In this document: positions 49,275 through 53,774 of the stretch, piece by piece
How positions within the stretch are numbered: position 1 is the stretch's first letter
Layout of the letters: the number at the start of each line of letters is the position of its first letter
Assembly: GCA_000165425.1 (NCBI GenBank)
Contig: CT868019.1
Coordinates: 434,001 to 498,000, forward strand
Source of the DNA: Paramecium tetraurelia
Lineage: Eukaryota
DNA length: 64,000 nt
Direction of reading: 5' to 3'
Translations under genes and position numbers: made by a program
The notes under the pieces: generated by a model
Seen by the model: the letters and a program-made list of their open reading frames with translations, nothing else
The model's database searches: none
Told to the model about the DNA's origin: nothing

Positions 49275-51132
49275 TCATTCATCAGATATTTCCTATTATC
49301 AAAATTACAAAAGAGTCAAATATCTTATGGACTTAATCATATTTGTTTTGTAATAAGGAAGATCTTCTGATTGGACTATTAATTGTTAGTGATGAAATCC
49401 TTAGATAATGAATCTATTTGTGAAAAGTTTGAAGAAAATGACTCCCCTTATTAAGAAACAGGGAGTGTAAGAAAAATATTATACAAATCACTTTCTATAA
49501 TAAAAATATAGTGATATTCAAATTCAGTTCGAAGTTTATTATAAAAGTTGAGAAAATTCTTAAAATGAAATTTTTCCATTTTAATTCAAATCTCCTTAAT
49601 TAAATATCAGTTCCCATTCTTTATCAGTTAATCTGGCTTCGATGAATAAGGATTTTAATTCTTTGATGGTTATTTATTAGCTTTAATTTTTATCGATAAA
49701 TTTAAATAGTAATTCGAGGTTTTCTTGATTAACAAGTTTGTCAGTATTGCATGAAGCTAGTAAAAACTCATTAAACTCTATATATCCATTTTAATTGGAA
49801 TCTAAAATTTAGAATATTTTATTAGTGAGTGACTTCTATTTCTCTGACGCTAAGAACTTTTTGAGTTCACTTTTTGTGATCTTTCCATCTTTATTATCAT
49901 CTATTGCTTCGAATGCAACCATTAGTTTCTCCTTCTCCTTTTCATCCATCAATTTATTAATCATAATTGACAACAATAATTTTTGAAATTCAGATTTTGA
50001 CTGATATTGTTAAATTCTCTAAAATACATCTTCAACAAAAGTTTTATCAGTATAGCTTACAATATTTTTGAGATATTCATTCTATAAGCATTGAGCAGCA
50101 GTTAGTCGTTTAGCTAACAATAGATGATATATTTACATGGATCAATTTTCAACATTGAATTAATCAACTTTTAAGCTTAAATTGGAATTTGATTCCAATT
50201 TTCATCTTTGGTAATTCTGCATTTTAAGATATTCTCCTTCTTCTCCTTATAGTTATCCCCTTTGAATGGTTAGAATTTTGTCCATATTTCATAGAGTAAT
50301 ACACCACATGACCAGATATCGGAGGCTTGAGAGAATTCCTAATTTTAAATGACCTCAGGCGCTAGATAAGTAAGATCAAGGATGTCATCATCCTTTTTAT
50401 TCACTCTTGTATTACTATAATCAACTAATTTAATCAATTAACTTTGTTAGCTTTAAAATAAAATGTTTTCAGGTTTGAGATTTCTATATAGAAAATATTT
50501 TATACTTGTGATTTATCCCATTACTATGCAAGTATTGTAAACCTGCTAAAATTTACTAGAAGTAAATTTAAATCAACTAGTTTTTCCTTGTTGATTCTTC
50601 CTTGTTCTCAAATTTTAGTCTTGACAATAGAGTTCCACCATCATAATTTTCAGTAACTATATACAATTACTTGGAATCAACAAAAAATTCATAAATAGAC
50701 ATGATATTTGGATGATCCTAATATTATTATATTTAATACTAATTTTTTAAGCTATTGTATTTTGTTTTGAACCTTTATTAAATCAGCTTGTTTATAATGG
50801 TGGGTTTATATAATTCCAATTTTCGTAACTCCAGTTTAATTATGTTATACAGTACAAACTTGTCGTATTTGTTCGTTGGGACTTTTTAAGTTGTTCAACA
50901 AAGTGTAGGTGTTAAAAAACTTCCCTTTGTTTGCAGTGTTTAATCTATCTGGAGTCATTAGTTCCTGACTTCTAATAAAGAAGTCTTATTGAGAGAATGC
51001 TAGTTGAGAACCTGCTGCAACATTATTGGGACTATTCTCTCTAACGATATCAGCAGTATTCGCTGTTTTCACATTTTAGTTTCTCAAAATTGGAGGTGAG
51101 TGGTTTTGTTTTTTAGATTTACAAATTCCCAT
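49275..51132 (-). CDS. CDPK-like pseudokinase with EF hands
   Basis: MGICKS start; DHPNI, HKNLKPEN, DYS, APE and DIWSCG; EF hands DDNKDGKITKSE and DSNQNGYIEFNE. 3' end approximate. Confidence 0.8.
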
Positions 51133-51408
51133 AGTAAAATAATTTATTTATTTTTTAGTTTCATCTATACAATATTAATATCAAATTTTTATAAAGATTT
51201 ACTAATATAATCCTTTCAGAATATTTCAGAATACCTTTAATTTTTTATAGTTTTGAGTAATTCAGATTAGCTAATAGATTCAGTAAAAAAACTCAATTAA
51301 ATTATACTATGATGATTAAAGGATGTATAGAGTTTATAATGAGAGTTAATGAAGTATGAGATTAAATATATATTTTATGAAAGAGAATATATGATGCAAT
51401 CAAGTTTA

Positions 51409-52452
51409 TCATACTTGTTTTTTTATAATAAATGATCTGCCTTTGCTTTGGGCAGTCCGAGGAGGAGCATACATGGTTTTATTAAAATACAATGTATATT
51501 CTCTGGATACCCAGTTAATGAGTTTGTCAGTTTCTTCAAATCGCCTTTTTTAATCCTTTGCTCCTATCAAGACTACTATTATAGATCCCAACAAACTCTC
51601 ATAAGAGACAGCAAGACAAGCACCAGCATTAGGTGTTATTCCTGTTTTAATTCCTGAATAATTTTCAAAATGCAACAATTAATTAGTATTAAACCACTCA
51701 TAATTTCTACAAGAATAGGATTTGCTATTGCAAATTTGTTTTAAAATGGGAATCTTCATATAAGCTGAACTCATTCTACACATGTCTAATGCTGTTGATT
51801 TATTAGCCTATATTTAACCTAGTATTAAATATGTACTTTTGAACTGAGACCATGTGGATTTGAAAATTAAGAATCTCTCATGCCTAATTTCATTGCATTC
51901 TCGTTCATTTATCTTACAAATCTATTCATGTTACTCATTTGAGTATCATCATAGAACCCTTAGATAGTGTCACATGTGATGTAACTGGCAATCTTTTATC
52001 TTCGATGAGTATTTAGTATCGATCCAAAATGCAGTGCAATAGATATCGCAGCATCATTTCCTGAGGGTAACATGAGTGCATATAACAATTCTTCTAAAGA
52101 CAATGTGTCATCCCTTCTTAAAAAGGCCGATGTCCCTCCTATCTATGTGGCAATTCTAGGAATACGAATAAAGGTTTCATTCTAAAATTAGATTATATCG
52201 GCTTGAATTACATAATCAAGATTTAATTCTTCACATAATTGTATCGCCGTATAAGCTGTCATTATCTTGGTAAGACTTGCAACCTCTAACTTCAAGGAAG
52301 GAGATTTGCTAGCTAGTTCATCTCCAATTGAAGTAACAATGCACCAAGACAAAGCAGTAGTTTATGGAGGATTCACTACATATTATATAAATATTCTTAC
52401 ATAATGATAATGCTGACTATCTTTTGGCATGTAAAGATTTATTCTCATTCAT
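51409..52452 (-). CDS. Serine-type D-Ala-D-Ala carboxypeptidase (peptidase S11, PBP5/DacA-like)
   Basis: VASLTKIMT (SxxK), LMLPSGNDAA (SxN), FSNPHGL, STALDM and GIKTGITPNAGACL (KTG); three tiny spliceosomal introns. Confidence 0.92.
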
Positions 52453-52494
52453 TTTAAATAAATAATAAAATAAGAAATAAATAGCTTATTATAT

Positions 52495-52818
52495 TCATGA
52501 GCACTAATGATAATATTCTATTATTTTTTATAGTTCAGCTCTTTTCGACATAACCTACTGTTTTAATAGTTAATTTTCTTCAATCAATGCCTTCATAAAT
52601 TGCGAATCATCGCTAATCATATTCTTCGGTAATTGCTATCCTCTTTGACTAAAATCATCCCTCTAAGTAAAAGAAACCGTATAAGCATTTGGTTTATGCA
52701 ACACTGGAGTGATTGATCTCTGTTATTGTACCCTTGGAATCTATTATTGACCAATATATTATGTTTGAACCAAATTTGGTTACCGCTAAAATGCTTATGT
52801 AATTGATTATTAGTACAT
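52495..52818 (-). CDS. Small Gln-rich hypothetical protein (107 aa) with C-terminal coiled coil
   Basis: Intronless code-6 ORF MYQQSITQAFQRQ...LIEENQLLKQQVMSK...*. Confidence 0.6.
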
Positions 52819-53774
52819 AATTATTTTAATAATTAAAATTTACATGGAGAAATACTTCATTGAATATCTGTAAAATATTGTTTAATATACCCTTAAATTA
52901 GATAATTATTTTATGAATATTAAACTTAGACTAATATTATTGACACATTGTTAGAATTTCAATTAGATATAATCTTTATTTTTATCACTAATTTATTTGC
53001 TTCTAAATCTGTAGATGGTTAATATGTGTTCTTATAAATATGTATAAACAAAAGTAAAGACATATCATTAAAATCTTTAAAAAGTATTTATAAGATATTA
53101 TATAAATTTCAAGTGATCTGCATATTCAATATATTTCTCTATAAATATTGACAAGAATAATATCTACCTAATTTATTTTATCTAATATTATAATGTATAG
53201 TGAATTAAATCTTGCTTAAATTTAATCATATCTAATTTTTAAAACATGAAAACCAAGTAATCATCGATTGAAATATGTTAATCAACATTGCCTTCAAATC
53301 CAATTCAGAATTTTTTCATATATCTTAATATATAATAAATGGTCGCATTTTATTAACAAATTATAGTATTACATTACAAGTGGAACTAGTCATAAGTATT
53401 TAGAATCAATTATACTTAGTTTTGCTATGGTTTGAGAGAGTGTTATATATTTGTAGAAATTACCTCTTATGATATAACGATGAGTTTAAGATACTTAATA
53501 TTTTTAATGTTTAAATTAACCAGATCTATAAGGAATTAGGATTTCATTTATGTTCATAAAATTATTGTATTTAATAATATTGATGTTTAAAAATAATCAA
53601 TTATTAATATCGCTGAAGTATTTGTCAAAAGTATCATAAAATAATTCGAACAAGAAAATTAATCGAATTTTTATCATTAATTATTGCGTAAGATTTAAAT
53701 ATATATTGTATGAAGATTGAAAATATTTTAAATATGTAATTGATAGTTATGAAGGAAGAATGAACATGTTATGA

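What the first reader, a model, noticed from the sequence alone, without database searches (positions are those of the whole stretch)
51409..52452. Bacterial-type penicillin-binding DD-carboxypeptidase domesticated in a ciliate genome
Seen: all three S11 motifs are intact (SLTK, SGN, KTG), the gene uses TAA/TAG as Gln and carries three tiny introns, so it is a host gene and not a contaminant. It has no evident signal peptide, no PBP5 C-terminal domain and no membrane anchor. Known: S11 enzymes trim peptidoglycan pentapeptides, and ciliates have no peptidoglycan. Inference: horizontal acquisition with a new role, such as processing prey or symbiont muropeptides in the cytosol, beta-lactam binding, or an unknown peptidase substrate.
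Basis: partly seen in the sequence, partly recalled or inferred. Interest (0 to 1): 0.7.

Follow-up and report, generated by a model that had tools for sequence, protein, structure and literature searches.

The report
Ciliate-wide bacterial-type DD-peptidase gene family
This is a real, expressed Paramecium gene for a bacterial-type cell-wall peptidase with an intact active site, one member of an old gene family found across ciliates whose job in a cell without a bacterial wall is unstudied.

Summary
Window 51409-52452 (minus strand) is a four-exon Paramecium tetraurelia gene (public id GSPATT00005739001). It has three tiny GTA...TAG introns, nine in-frame TAA/TAG codons and a TGA stop, and encodes a 319-aa single-domain S11 peptidase. 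SLTK, SGN and KTG are intact. The predicted fold matches PBP5, PBP6 and DacB. There is no PBP5 C-terminal domain and no signal-peptide-like N-terminus. Poly-A RNA-seq covers the gene, and one RNA contig shows intron 1 removed.

It is not a one-off domestication. Databases already label it "Peptidase S11", and named homologues occur in Tetrahymena, Pseudocohnilembus, Stylonychia, Halteria, Moneuplotes, Nyctotherus, Protocruzia and Furgasonia, in several old paralogue lines. All 181 sequences of the ciliate clade keep the three catalytic motifs.

The closest named bacteria are Planctomycetota. A starred branch (98/94) groups them with the ciliate-like sequences, but the root, and so the donor, is unresolved (AU p 0.546).

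The best reading is an ancient bacterial-to-ciliate transfer of an active acyl-serine DD-peptidase that now works inside the cell. Its substrate is unknown. Nine literature searches found no paper on it. Interest is moderate.

The parts
51409..52452 (-). Whole gene, ATG to TGA. Equals public GSPATT00005739001 / CAK62493.1 / UniProt A0BVC6. Encodes a 319-aa single-domain S11 peptidase.
   Evidence: model; identity to P0004 and its accessions; PF00768, 139.3 bits; RNA coverage.
52401..52452 (-). Exon 1 (52 nt). A 17-residue basic N-terminus with no hydrophobic core.
   Evidence: Nine of its bases (52401-52409) are joined to 52375 in an RNA contig (tables 7 and 8).
52376..52400 (-). Intron 1, 25 nt, GTA...TAG.
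   Evidence: Its removal is shown directly by X13 record 5: 52212-52375 plus a loose end equal to 52401-52409.
52212..52375 (-). Exon 2 (164 nt). Holds the SLTK nucleophile motif at 52266-52277.
   Evidence: RNA contig X13 record 5 covers exactly 52212-52375.
52182..52211 (-). Intron 2, 30 nt, in frame, GTA...TAG. It differs from the intron used in the public model P0004.
   Evidence: Seven of 9 aurelia-complex relatives checked match the pattern holding CE[ED]LNLDY at 52235-52212, the stretch my model keeps as exon. RNA contigs end at 52212 and 52181, and depth dips in all 3 raw-read runs. This is indirect evidence only.
51837..52181 (-). Exon 3 (345 nt). Holds SGN at 52056-52064 and the poorly conserved insert after it (about 51930-52028).
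   Evidence: The insert has pLDDT of 50-57 and is variable or absent in relatives.
51808..51836 (-). Intron 3, 29 nt, GTA...TAG. It shifts the frame.
   Evidence: The S11 profile continues in the other frame. The same junction is used in P0004 and P0005. The depth dip is weak and there is no direct junction read.
51409..51807 (-). Exon 4 (399 nt including TGA). Holds KTG at 51640-51648, the last helix and a basic C-terminal tail.

Best explanation
The locus is a genuine, spliced and transcribed nuclear gene of Paramecium tetraurelia. It encodes a single-domain member of peptidase family S11, the low-molecular-weight penicillin-binding DD-peptidases.

Mechanism, inferred from the conserved apparatus. 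Ser51 of SLTK attacks a peptide carbonyl with Lys54 as base. SGN and KTG line the site. An acyl-enzyme forms and is hydrolysed.

Family. The gene is one of several old paralogue lines present in many ciliate classes. Every member examined keeps the catalytic motifs, so catalysis appears to be under selection.

Origin. The family most likely entered the ciliate stem lineage once, by transfer from a bacterium. The nearest named bacterial proteins are the C-terminal S11 domains of Planctomycetota Beta-lactamase2 + PG_binding_1 + S11 proteins. After transfer it lost the signal peptide and gained introns, the ciliate code and low-complexity extensions.

Location and substrate, inferred only. With no signal-peptide-like N-terminus, the enzyme acts inside the cell, in the cytosol or possibly an organelle. 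The most likely substrate is D-Ala-D-Ala-ended stem peptides of ingested or resident bacteria.

My odds for each step:
- real expressed gene: 0.97
- active S11-type enzyme: 0.85
- ancient ciliate-wide family: 0.9
- bacterial origin: 0.75
- Planctomycete-like donor: 0.45
- peptidoglycan-peptide substrate: 0.4
For: Gene and expression.
- Exon model, 9 in-frame TAA/TAG and a TGA stop.
- Coverage in 3 of 3 poly-A RNA-seq runs, all reads in one orientation; intron 1 removed in an RNA contig.

Family membership.
- PF00768 at 139.3 bits against a 27.6 cut-off.
- AlphaFold model with pLDDT 89.7 and pTM 0.86.
- Foldseek best hits: P. aeruginosa PBP5 4k91 (E 1.1e-20, rmsd 1.7 over 271 columns), B. subtilis DacB 3mfd, E. 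coli PBP6 and PBP5, Streptomyces K15.

Catalytic conservation.
- SxxK, SxN and K[TS]G are present in 40 of 40 named ciliate sequences and in 181 of 181 tips of the ciliate clade.
- S51, K54, S111, N113, K240 and G242 are invariant in a 55-sequence alignment.

Spread.
- Named homologues occur in Paramecium (6 species), Tetrahymena (3 species), Pseudocohnilembus, Stylonychia, Halteria, Moneuplotes, Nyctotherus (7 transcripts), Protocruzia and Furgasonia.
- The window protein groups with T. thermophila XP_001010482 at 100/96.

Bacterial link.
- Of the 37 best GTDB loci, 35 are named Planctomycetota lineages. The other 2 are unnamed and fall in that clade.
- A starred split (98/94) puts Planctomycetota with the ciliate-like sequences, apart from 17 other bacterial rows.
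- S11 is vast in the protein library: 23,509 representatives at E <= 0.001. Named eukaryotic hits are ciliates plus one Gefionella transcript.
- The Planctomycete proteins also lack PBP5_C.

No signal peptide.
Against: Rooting and donor.
- The tree is unrooted. A topology with all 30 labelled bacteria on one side of a branch is not rejected and is even 2.07 log-likelihood units better (AU p 0.546). Neither the direction of transfer nor a Planctomycete donor is demonstrated.
- The ciliate-containing clade has 89/99 support and is not starred. The bootstrap had not fully settled.

Sampling.
- The GTDB scan was pre-filtered with two peptide patterns taken from the ciliate alignment, which biases which bacteria are seen.
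- 140 of the 181 tips in the 'ciliate clade' are unlabelled environmental proteins whose organisms I could not name.
- A non-ciliate eukaryote transcript (Gefionella okellyi) and GC-rich environmental sequences sit unresolved near the same node.

Function.
- A digestive role would normally need a signal peptide, which is absent.
- Several old paralogues with long low-complexity tails are more than simple muropeptide salvage seems to need.
- No activity, localisation or phenotype data exist.

Splicing: only intron 1 has direct RNA junction evidence.
Confidence: 0.6

Rival explanations
1. Same enzyme chemistry but a new, endogenous substrate. The ciliate S11 family has been re-used for a ciliate cell-biological task, such as trimming a C-terminal or branched small-residue (Gly or D-Ala-like) peptide on a cytoskeletal or organellar protein, and no longer sees peptidoglycan.
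For: No signal-peptide-like N-terminus in 43 of 44 named ciliate sequences. Several anciently diverged paralogue lines are each kept across ciliate classes. Long low-complexity extensions reach 883-972 aa in Tetrahymena and Stylonychia. The family is retained in the gut commensal Nyctotherus with at least 7 transcripts. Catalytic motifs are universally kept.
Against: The residues conserved in ciliates (W-x-NTN, AG-x-C, the R after the last strand) are also present in the Planctomycete relatives. I saw no sign of a remodelled site. No candidate substrate is supported by any data here.
Confidence: 0.2
2. Not a transfer into ciliates. The gene is an ancient eukaryotic gene, from the last eukaryotic common ancestor or from the mitochondrial ancestor, lost almost everywhere and retained in ciliates and a few other lineages.
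For: A tree with all labelled bacteria on one side and all 45 eukaryote-like or unlabelled rows on the other is not rejected (AU p 0.546). A malawimonad transcript (Gefionella) and GC-rich environmental genes sit near the same node. Those genes lie on a contig of low ORF density, next to a CysRS gene split into two ORFs.
Against: Among the named hits in three searches of a 5.8-billion-protein collection, the only eukaryotes are ciliates and Gefionella. The Gefionella protein is far closer to Planctomycetota (E about 1e-65, 45-58% local identity) than to ciliates (E 6e-36). That suggests a separate acquisition. No alphaproteobacterial affinity was seen: the one proteobacterial row is with the distant group.
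Confidence: 0.12
3. A catalytically silent binding protein or pseudoenzyme, for example a muropeptide or beta-lactam sensor, rather than a hydrolase.
For: None specific. Activity was not measured. NCBIfam equivalogs for DacA, DacC, DacD and PbpG are far below their cut-offs: at most 44.4 bits against 294-765, tested on two gene fragments.
Against: All three catalytic motifs are kept in 181 of 181 clade members over a very long divergence. The model superposes on active DD-carboxypeptidases at rmsd 1.6-2.1.
Confidence: 0.05
4. Bacterial contamination or an unexpressed relic in the assembly.
For: None beyond the bacterial type of the domain.
Against: There are 9 in-frame TAA/TAG codons and three 25-30-nt GTA...TAG introns. 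The window has 23-33% GC. Strand-consistent poly-A RNA coverage is seen in 3 of 3 runs, and a spliced contig exists. There is a 94%-identical paralogue plus 319-320-aa orthologues in four sister species.
Confidence: 0.01

Closest known systems
Planctomycetota 'serine hydrolase' proteins of about 660-700 aa (Beta-lactamase2 + PG_binding_1 + C-terminal Peptidase_S11), e.g. loci L001 and L037 (Aeoliella straminimaris) and protein P0074 (Lacipirellulaceae); also short forms of about 290 aa in Gemmataceae and Planctomycetaceae (L033, L061)
   Same: They are the closest named bacterial sequences: 30-35% identity over nearly the whole domain, tblastn E 5e-49 to 1e-36. They group with the ciliate-like sequences at 98/94. 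The S11 domain ends the protein with no PBP5 C-terminal domain. The same conserved residues surround the three motifs.
   Different: The bacterial proteins have hydrophobic N-termini. Most also carry a class-A-like beta-lactamase domain and a peptidoglycan-binding domain. The ciliate protein has none of these. It has introns, the ciliate code and a variable insert after SGN.
Class C low-molecular-weight PBPs with solved structures: P. aeruginosa PBP5 (4k91), B. subtilis DacB (3mfd), E. coli PBP6 (3it9) and PBP5 (1nzo, 1z6f)
   Same: Same fold: TM 0.68-0.72 on the query, rmsd 1.6-2.5 over 271-278 columns, 26-28% identity. Same SxxK, SxN and KTG motifs. Sequence matches down to E 3.2e-13.
   Different: Pfam finds only PF00768 in the ciliate protein, so the PBP5_C beta-sandwich domain PF07943 is not detected. 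That these bacterial enzymes are exported, carry that C-domain and, for E. coli PBP5, a C-terminal membrane-anchoring helix is recalled, not tested here. NCBIfam equivalog scores are far below cut-off (on fragments).
Streptomyces K15 DD-transpeptidase (1skf), a single-domain S11 enzyme of 262 residues
   Same: A single-domain S11 enzyme of similar size. TM 0.86 normalised on the target. Sequence E 1.2e-06.
   Different: rmsd is higher at 3.6 and identity is 24%. That K15 is secreted and acts as a transpeptidase is recalled, not tested here.
LACTB, the metazoan mitochondrial serine beta-lactamase-like protein (family S12). Recalled from knowledge; not searched or aligned here.
   Same: The concept only: a penicillin-binding-type serine peptidase kept by a eukaryote that has no peptidoglycan and re-used inside the cell.
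   Different: It belongs to a different family (S12, PF00144). The window protein matches only PF00768. No homology beyond the superfamily is claimed, and no localisation data exist for the ciliate protein.

Membership tests
Peptidase family S11 (Pfam PF00768, D-Ala-D-Ala carboxypeptidase A-type penicillin-binding domain) | Profile match above the curated gathering score | tested here: met
   P0004 scores 139.3 bits (E 1.9e-40) against a 27.6 cut-off. Two fragments translated straight from the window score 79.4 and 36.5 bits.
Peptidase family S11 | Catalytic motifs SxxK (nucleophile Ser and Lys), SxN and KTG in order | tested here: met
   SLTK at aa 51-54, SGN at 112-114 and KTG at 241-243. 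These columns are invariant in 55 aligned sequences. They are kept in 181 of 181 clade members.
Peptidase family S11 | Penicillin-binding / beta-lactamase-like alpha-beta fold | tested here: met
   AlphaFold2 model has pLDDT 89.7 and pTM 0.86. The top Foldseek hits are all S11 structures, E down to 1.1e-20 and rmsd 1.6-2.1.
Peptidase family S11 | Acyl-enzyme formation with beta-lactams and DD-peptidase activity | not testable with these tools
   Needs Bocillin-FL labelling and a D-Ala release assay.
PBP5/PBP6 (DacA/DacC/DacD) subgroup | C-terminal beta-sandwich domain (PF07943) | tested here: not met
   Pfam reports only PF00768. The model ends in one helix (272-298) and a disordered tail.
PBP5/PBP6 (DacA/DacC/DacD) subgroup | NCBIfam equivalog score above cut-off | tested here: not met
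   Best scores are 26-44 bits against cut-offs of 294-765. Caveat: this was run on two fragments of the protein, not the whole.
Bacterial exported DD-peptidases in general | N-terminal signal peptide, acting outside the cytoplasm | tested here: not met
   By a crude Kyte-Doolittle scan, the maximum 11-aa hydropathy in the first 45 aa is 1.61 for the window protein, and that peak is the first beta-strand. One of 44 named ciliate sequences reaches 2.0, against 58 of 86 labelled bacterial ones. No dedicated predictor was available.

The most novel reading that the evidence does not exclude
Ciliates have kept, for the whole history of the phylum, a set of catalytically intact DD-peptidase paralogues that act on an endogenous, non-peptidoglycan substrate inside the cell. 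One example would be removal of small-residue (Gly or D-Ala-like) peptide ends or branches from cytoskeletal or organellar proteins. Another would be a LACTB-like role in mitochondria. Either would be a second, independent re-use of penicillin-binding chemistry by eukaryotes. My evidence does not exclude this: there is no signal-peptide-like N-terminus, the N-terminal extensions are basic and Ser/Thr-rich, and several old paralogues carry long tails. My evidence does not specifically support it either.
Probability: 0.15. Interest if true: 0.85.

Novelty: new member of a known kind. Interest (0 to 1): 0.45.

Why it matters
S11 enzymes are defined by their action on bacterial peptidoglycan, and ciliates have none. 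Yet in every sequence examined, the ciliate family keeps the full catalytic apparatus, has no export signal, and has split into several old paralogue lines. That implies a selected enzymatic function that nobody has described.

If the substrate is bacterial stem peptides, this would be an intracellular muropeptide-processing step in a bacterivore. It would be comparable to the bacterial-origin cell-wall genes that some insects use on their symbionts (recalled, not checked here). If the substrate is endogenous, it would be a new eukaryotic use of penicillin-binding chemistry.

Both readings are directly testable in Paramecium (RNAi, GFP injection) and in Tetrahymena (knock-out, axenic growth). 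The practical by-products are a corrected intron 2 for GSPATT00005739001 and a named candidate donor group, Planctomycetota, for a proper rooted phylogeny.

Tried and rejected
Whole-genome search of the window's own assembly: no genome is held. Paralogues in P. tetraurelia could be counted only through protein databases.

Literature: nine searches saw listings and abstract starts only, and no paper was opened.
- combined 'D-alanyl-D-alanine carboxypeptidase' with ciliate, Tetrahymena, Paramecium and other genera.
- penicillin-binding + ciliates + HGT.
- 'Peptidase S11' + eukaryot.
- accession numbers of the Tetrahymena and Paramecium proteins; 0 papers each.
- ciliate + HGT + peptidoglycan + Planctomycetes.
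None of the listed papers concerns this family. Supplements and subscription journals were not searched, so proteome tables may still list these proteins.

Earlier notes of this scan: nothing by place, sequence or words.

Protein Atlas on P0072, to name the GC-rich environmental group: it returned only generic S11 clusters (Verrucomicrobiota, Bacillota, Ciliophora, Kiritimatiellota, Pseudomonadota) at a score of 0.94, with no taxon assignment.

Cluster look-ups for the unlabelled basal sequences gave no organism names, except that P0224 is Furgasonia.

Metagenome scan with P0365: two contigs carry the 540-aa gene uninterrupted. Contig L081 has 53-60% GC, sparse ORFs and a CysRS gene split into two ORFs. 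This hints at a eukaryote, but the organism was not identified.

Raw-read joints: the lay listed none (58-nt reads at low depth). Introns 2 and 3 therefore lack direct junction reads.

Another intron inside the insert after SGN: I looked for one and rejected it. No GTA...TAG pair is there, and the ohnologue keeps the insert.

The S11 gene as part of the upstream gene, which ends only 42 nt before the ATG: rejected. Coverage falls to about 0-1 between the two, there is an in-frame TGA at 52495-52497, and there is no canonical intron across it.
Full report
1. WHAT IS AT THE COORDINATES

The window is AT-rich, 23-33% GC in 2-kb steps. On the minus strand an ATG at 52452-52450 opens a gene that ends with TGA at 51411-51409.

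Read with the ciliate code, it has four exons: 52452-52401, 52375-52212, 52181-51837 and 51807-51409. Three introns of 25, 30 and 29 nt separate them, each starting GTA and ending TAG. The spliced CDS is 960 nt (319 aa). It has 7 TAA and 2 TAG codons in frame, and a single TGA, which is the stop.

Tiny GTA...TAG introns, and TAA/TAG read as Gln with TGA as the only stop, are the known hallmarks of Paramecium nuclear genes (established knowledge).

The protein equals the public Paramecium tetraurelia entry GSPATT00005739001 (CAK62493.1, XP_001429891.1, UniProt A0BVC6; P0004 here), except around intron 2.

2. INTRON 2 AND RNA EVIDENCE

The public model uses a different, non-canonical intron and gives 318 aa. 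My model keeps 52235-52212 as exon; this stretch encodes CEELNLDY.

Evidence for my intron 2:
- Seven of 9 aurelia-complex relatives checked (the P. tetraurelia ohnologue and 6 of 8 sister-species proteins) match a pattern holding CE[ED]LNLDY there. The two P. sonneborni sequences did not match the search pattern.
- The ohnologue GSPATT00007865001 (P0005) aligns to my model with 19 substitutions and no gap.

I laid three poly-A RNA-seq raw-read runs and one RNA-seq contig set on 51200-52700.
- All 3 raw-read runs cover the gene at about 1-13x.
- Every read pair has the same orientation.
- Depth dips in the bin holding intron 2 in all three runs (2.3, 1.6 and 0.8, against 9.6, 4.3 and 5.9 in one neighbouring bin and 8.4, 3.3 and 2.9 in the other).
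- The dip at intron 3 is weaker.
- One contig covers exactly 52212-52375 and then continues with nine letters equal to 52401-52409 (checked). This shows intron 1 removed.
- Another contig ends exactly at 52181.
- The lay listed no read joints (58-nt reads). Introns 2 and 3 therefore rest on these indirect signs, on the reading frame and on homology.

3. WHAT THE PROTEIN IS

Sequence:
- Pfam reports only PF00768 (Peptidase_S11), at 139.3 bits against a cut-off of 27.6.
- Fragments translated directly from the window also pass.
- Sequence search of the PDB gives 20 distinct S11 chains at E <= 0.001. The best is B. subtilis DacB 3mfd at 3.2e-13.

Structure:
- An AlphaFold2 model of P0004, built on a 55-sequence alignment, is confident: pLDDT 89.7 and pTM 0.86. 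Only the insert after SGN and the two ends are weak.
- Foldseek places it on P. aeruginosa PBP5, B. subtilis DacB, E. coli PBP6 and PBP5 and Streptomyces K15. E values run from 1e-20 to 1e-18, and rmsd is 1.6-2.5 on the carboxypeptidases.

Motifs:
- The catalytic motifs are SLTK (aa 51-54), SGN (112-114) and KTG (241-243).

What is missing:
- There is no PBP5 C-terminal domain.
- The N-terminus has no hydrophobic core.
- The only hydrophobic 19-mer is a core strand of the domain.
- NCBIfam equivalogs for DacA, DacC, DacD, PbpG, PBP4 and VanY-D are far below cut-off. These were tested only on fragments.

So it is a member of S11, but not of the PBP5/6 subgroup.

4. IT IS A FAMILY, NOT A SINGLE GENE

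Word-indexed searches of 5.8 billion proteins returned named homologues from these taxa:
- P. tetraurelia, primaurelia, pentaurelia, octaurelia, sonneborni and bursaria
- Tetrahymena thermophila (three proteins named 'D-alanyl-D-alanine carboxypeptidase family protein'), T. malaccensis and T. utriculariae
- Pseudocohnilembus, Stylonychia, Halteria and Moneuplotes
- Nyctotherus (7 transcripts), Protocruzia and Furgasonia

An exhaustive HMMER search of 1.84 billion representatives found 23,509 proteins at E <= 0.001 and 123 at E <= 1e-30.

I cut the S11 core from 452 sequences that had a domain hit. I kept the 394 that span the core. A FastTree of these gave the following:
- The smallest clade holding all 40 named ciliate rows has 181 tips.
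- None of those 181 tips is a labelled bacterium.
- 140 of them are unlabelled environmental proteins.

All 181 keep SxxK, SxN and K[TS]G, as do 390 of all 394.

Ciliate members lack a signal-peptide-like N-terminus: 1 of 44 reaches the threshold, against 58 of 86 bacterial rows. Many carry long low-complexity extensions.

5. ORIGIN

A scan of one genome per GTDB species found 589 confirmed relatives among 598 pattern matches and kept the best 80. The scan was pre-filtered by two peptide patterns from the ciliate alignment, which is a bias.

Of the top 37 loci, 35 are named Planctomycetota lineages, with 30-35% identity and E from 5e-49 to 1e-36. There the S11 domain is the C-terminal part of proteins of about 660-750 aa. 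These have a class-A-like beta-lactamase domain and a PG_binding_1 domain and, as in ciliates, no PBP5_C.

I hand-picked 79 rows from the 394. Four were not in the core alignment, so 75 were used. They were analysed with IQ-TREE under LG+C20+F+G4 PMSF on 263 columns. The result:
- A starred split (98/94) separates 17 rows of other bacteria from 58 rows. The 17 are Bacillota, Actinomycetota, Chloroflexota, one Noviherbaspirillum and one stray Planctomycete. The 58 hold all ciliates, the main Planctomycete clade (13 rows, 100/97), Gefionella and the GC-rich unlabelled sequences.
- Inside the 58 the order is unresolved.
- The ciliate-containing clade has 38 rows and 89/99 support, which is not starred.
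- The window protein pairs with its ohnologue (100/99) and then with T. thermophila XP_001010482 (100/96).
- Other paralogue lines also join different ciliate classes: T. thermophila with Pseudocohnilembus at 98/92, starred, and Halteria with Protocruzia at 89/96, not starred. On these branches, duplication predates much of the ciliate radiation.

An AU test did not reject holding all 30 labelled bacteria on one side. That tree is 2.07 log-likelihood units better, with p 0.546. This is compatible with the starred split, but it shows that root and direction are not settled by these data.

I favour transfer from bacteria for two reasons. S11 is huge and diverse in the protein library, where nearly all named hits are bacterial. 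Among eukaryotes the named hits are ciliates plus a single Gefionella transcript.

That Gefionella transcript is much closer to Planctomycetota (E about 1e-65) than to ciliates. No other named eukaryote appears among its best 120 hits. It may be a separate acquisition.

6. HOW IT PROBABLY WORKS

Shown: the fold, the intact Ser/Lys, SxN and KTG apparatus, its strict conservation, and transcription.

Inferred:
- It forms and hydrolyses an acyl-enzyme on a peptide with a small D-configured or achiral C-terminal residue, as S11 enzymes do.
- It works inside the cell, because no export signal is present.
- The residues conserved around the site are shared with the Planctomycete relatives. The simplest substrate is therefore still a D-Ala-D-Ala stem peptide from ingested or resident bacteria. 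I put this at about 0.4.

Against that reading, digestive enzymes normally carry signal peptides. Several old paralogues with long tails suggest more specialised cellular roles. I put an endogenous substrate at about 0.2, with organellar targeting possible. None of this could be tested here.

7. WHAT IS KNOWN, AND THE VERDICT

Public databases already label the protein as an S11 domain protein.

Nine full-text searches of open PMC and bioRxiv found no paper on ciliate S11 proteins or on their accession numbers. I saw only listings and abstract starts and opened no paper. Supplements and subscription journals were not covered.

So the gene is a new member of a known enzyme kind, in an unexpected host and cell compartment. 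It is known to annotation pipelines and, as far as these searches reach, unknown to the literature.

- Bacterial origin is likely.
- It is ancient and family-wide rather than a single domestication.
- The donor and the direction of transfer are not proven.
- The function is open.

Interest is moderate.

Noticed in passing
window 52182-52235 (-): The public model of GSPATT00005739001 (P0004, 318 aa) seems to use a wrong intron 2. It skips the stretch that encodes CEELNLDY and instead translates part of a canonical 30-nt GTA...TAG intron. Seven of 9 aurelia-complex relatives checked, and the RNA contig ends at 52212 and 52181, favour the 319-aa model.
   Followed up: partly
window 52495-53064 (-): The upstream gene on the same strand ends with TGA at 52495-52497, only 42 nt before the S11 start codon. 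It is covered more deeply (6-16x at 52577-52700) than the S11 gene, and depth falls to about 0-1 between them. Its product was not identified.
   Followed up: no
window about 50689-51180 (-): The next ORF downstream on the same strand contains a Met followed by GICKSKK, a Met-Gly start of the kind that can be N-myristoylated. It lies about 270 nt after the S11 stop. It was not analysed.
   Followed up: no
window 51957 and 51966: Some RNA reads in two runs carry C>T at 51957 (2 of 3 reads and 3 of 7) and A>G at 51966 (2 of 5 and 3 of 7). The third run and the RNA contigs show none. The likely cause is cross-mapping from the 94%-identical ohnologue or a strain difference. This was not resolved.
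   Followed up: no
L081:4798-6420 (+), also L082: Environmental contigs encode an uninterrupted 540-aa S11 protein (94% identical to P0365) with a long N-terminal extension that does not look like a signal peptide. Contig L081 has 53-60% GC and sparse ORFs. It carries a cysteinyl-tRNA synthetase gene split into two abutting ORFs, a LON substrate-binding-domain ORF and ankyrin repeats. It looks eukaryotic, but the organism is unknown. In the tree this group sits unresolved beside the ciliate and Planctomycete clades.
   Followed up: partly
protein P0015 (EukProt, Gefionella okellyi transcript, 511 aa): A malawimonad transcriptome holds an S11 protein that starts right at the domain, has an internal insert, and is closest to Planctomycetota proteins (E about 1e-65, 45-58% local identity). 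It may be an independent transfer or a contaminant. This is not settled.
   Followed up: partly
L001:1828-3816, L037:1777-3861 and similar loci: Planctomycetota commonly fuse a class-A-like Beta-lactamase2 domain, a PG_binding_1 domain and a C-terminal S11 domain in one protein of about 660-700 aa. Short S11-only forms of about 290 aa occur in Gemmataceae and Planctomycetaceae (L033, L061).
   Followed up: partly
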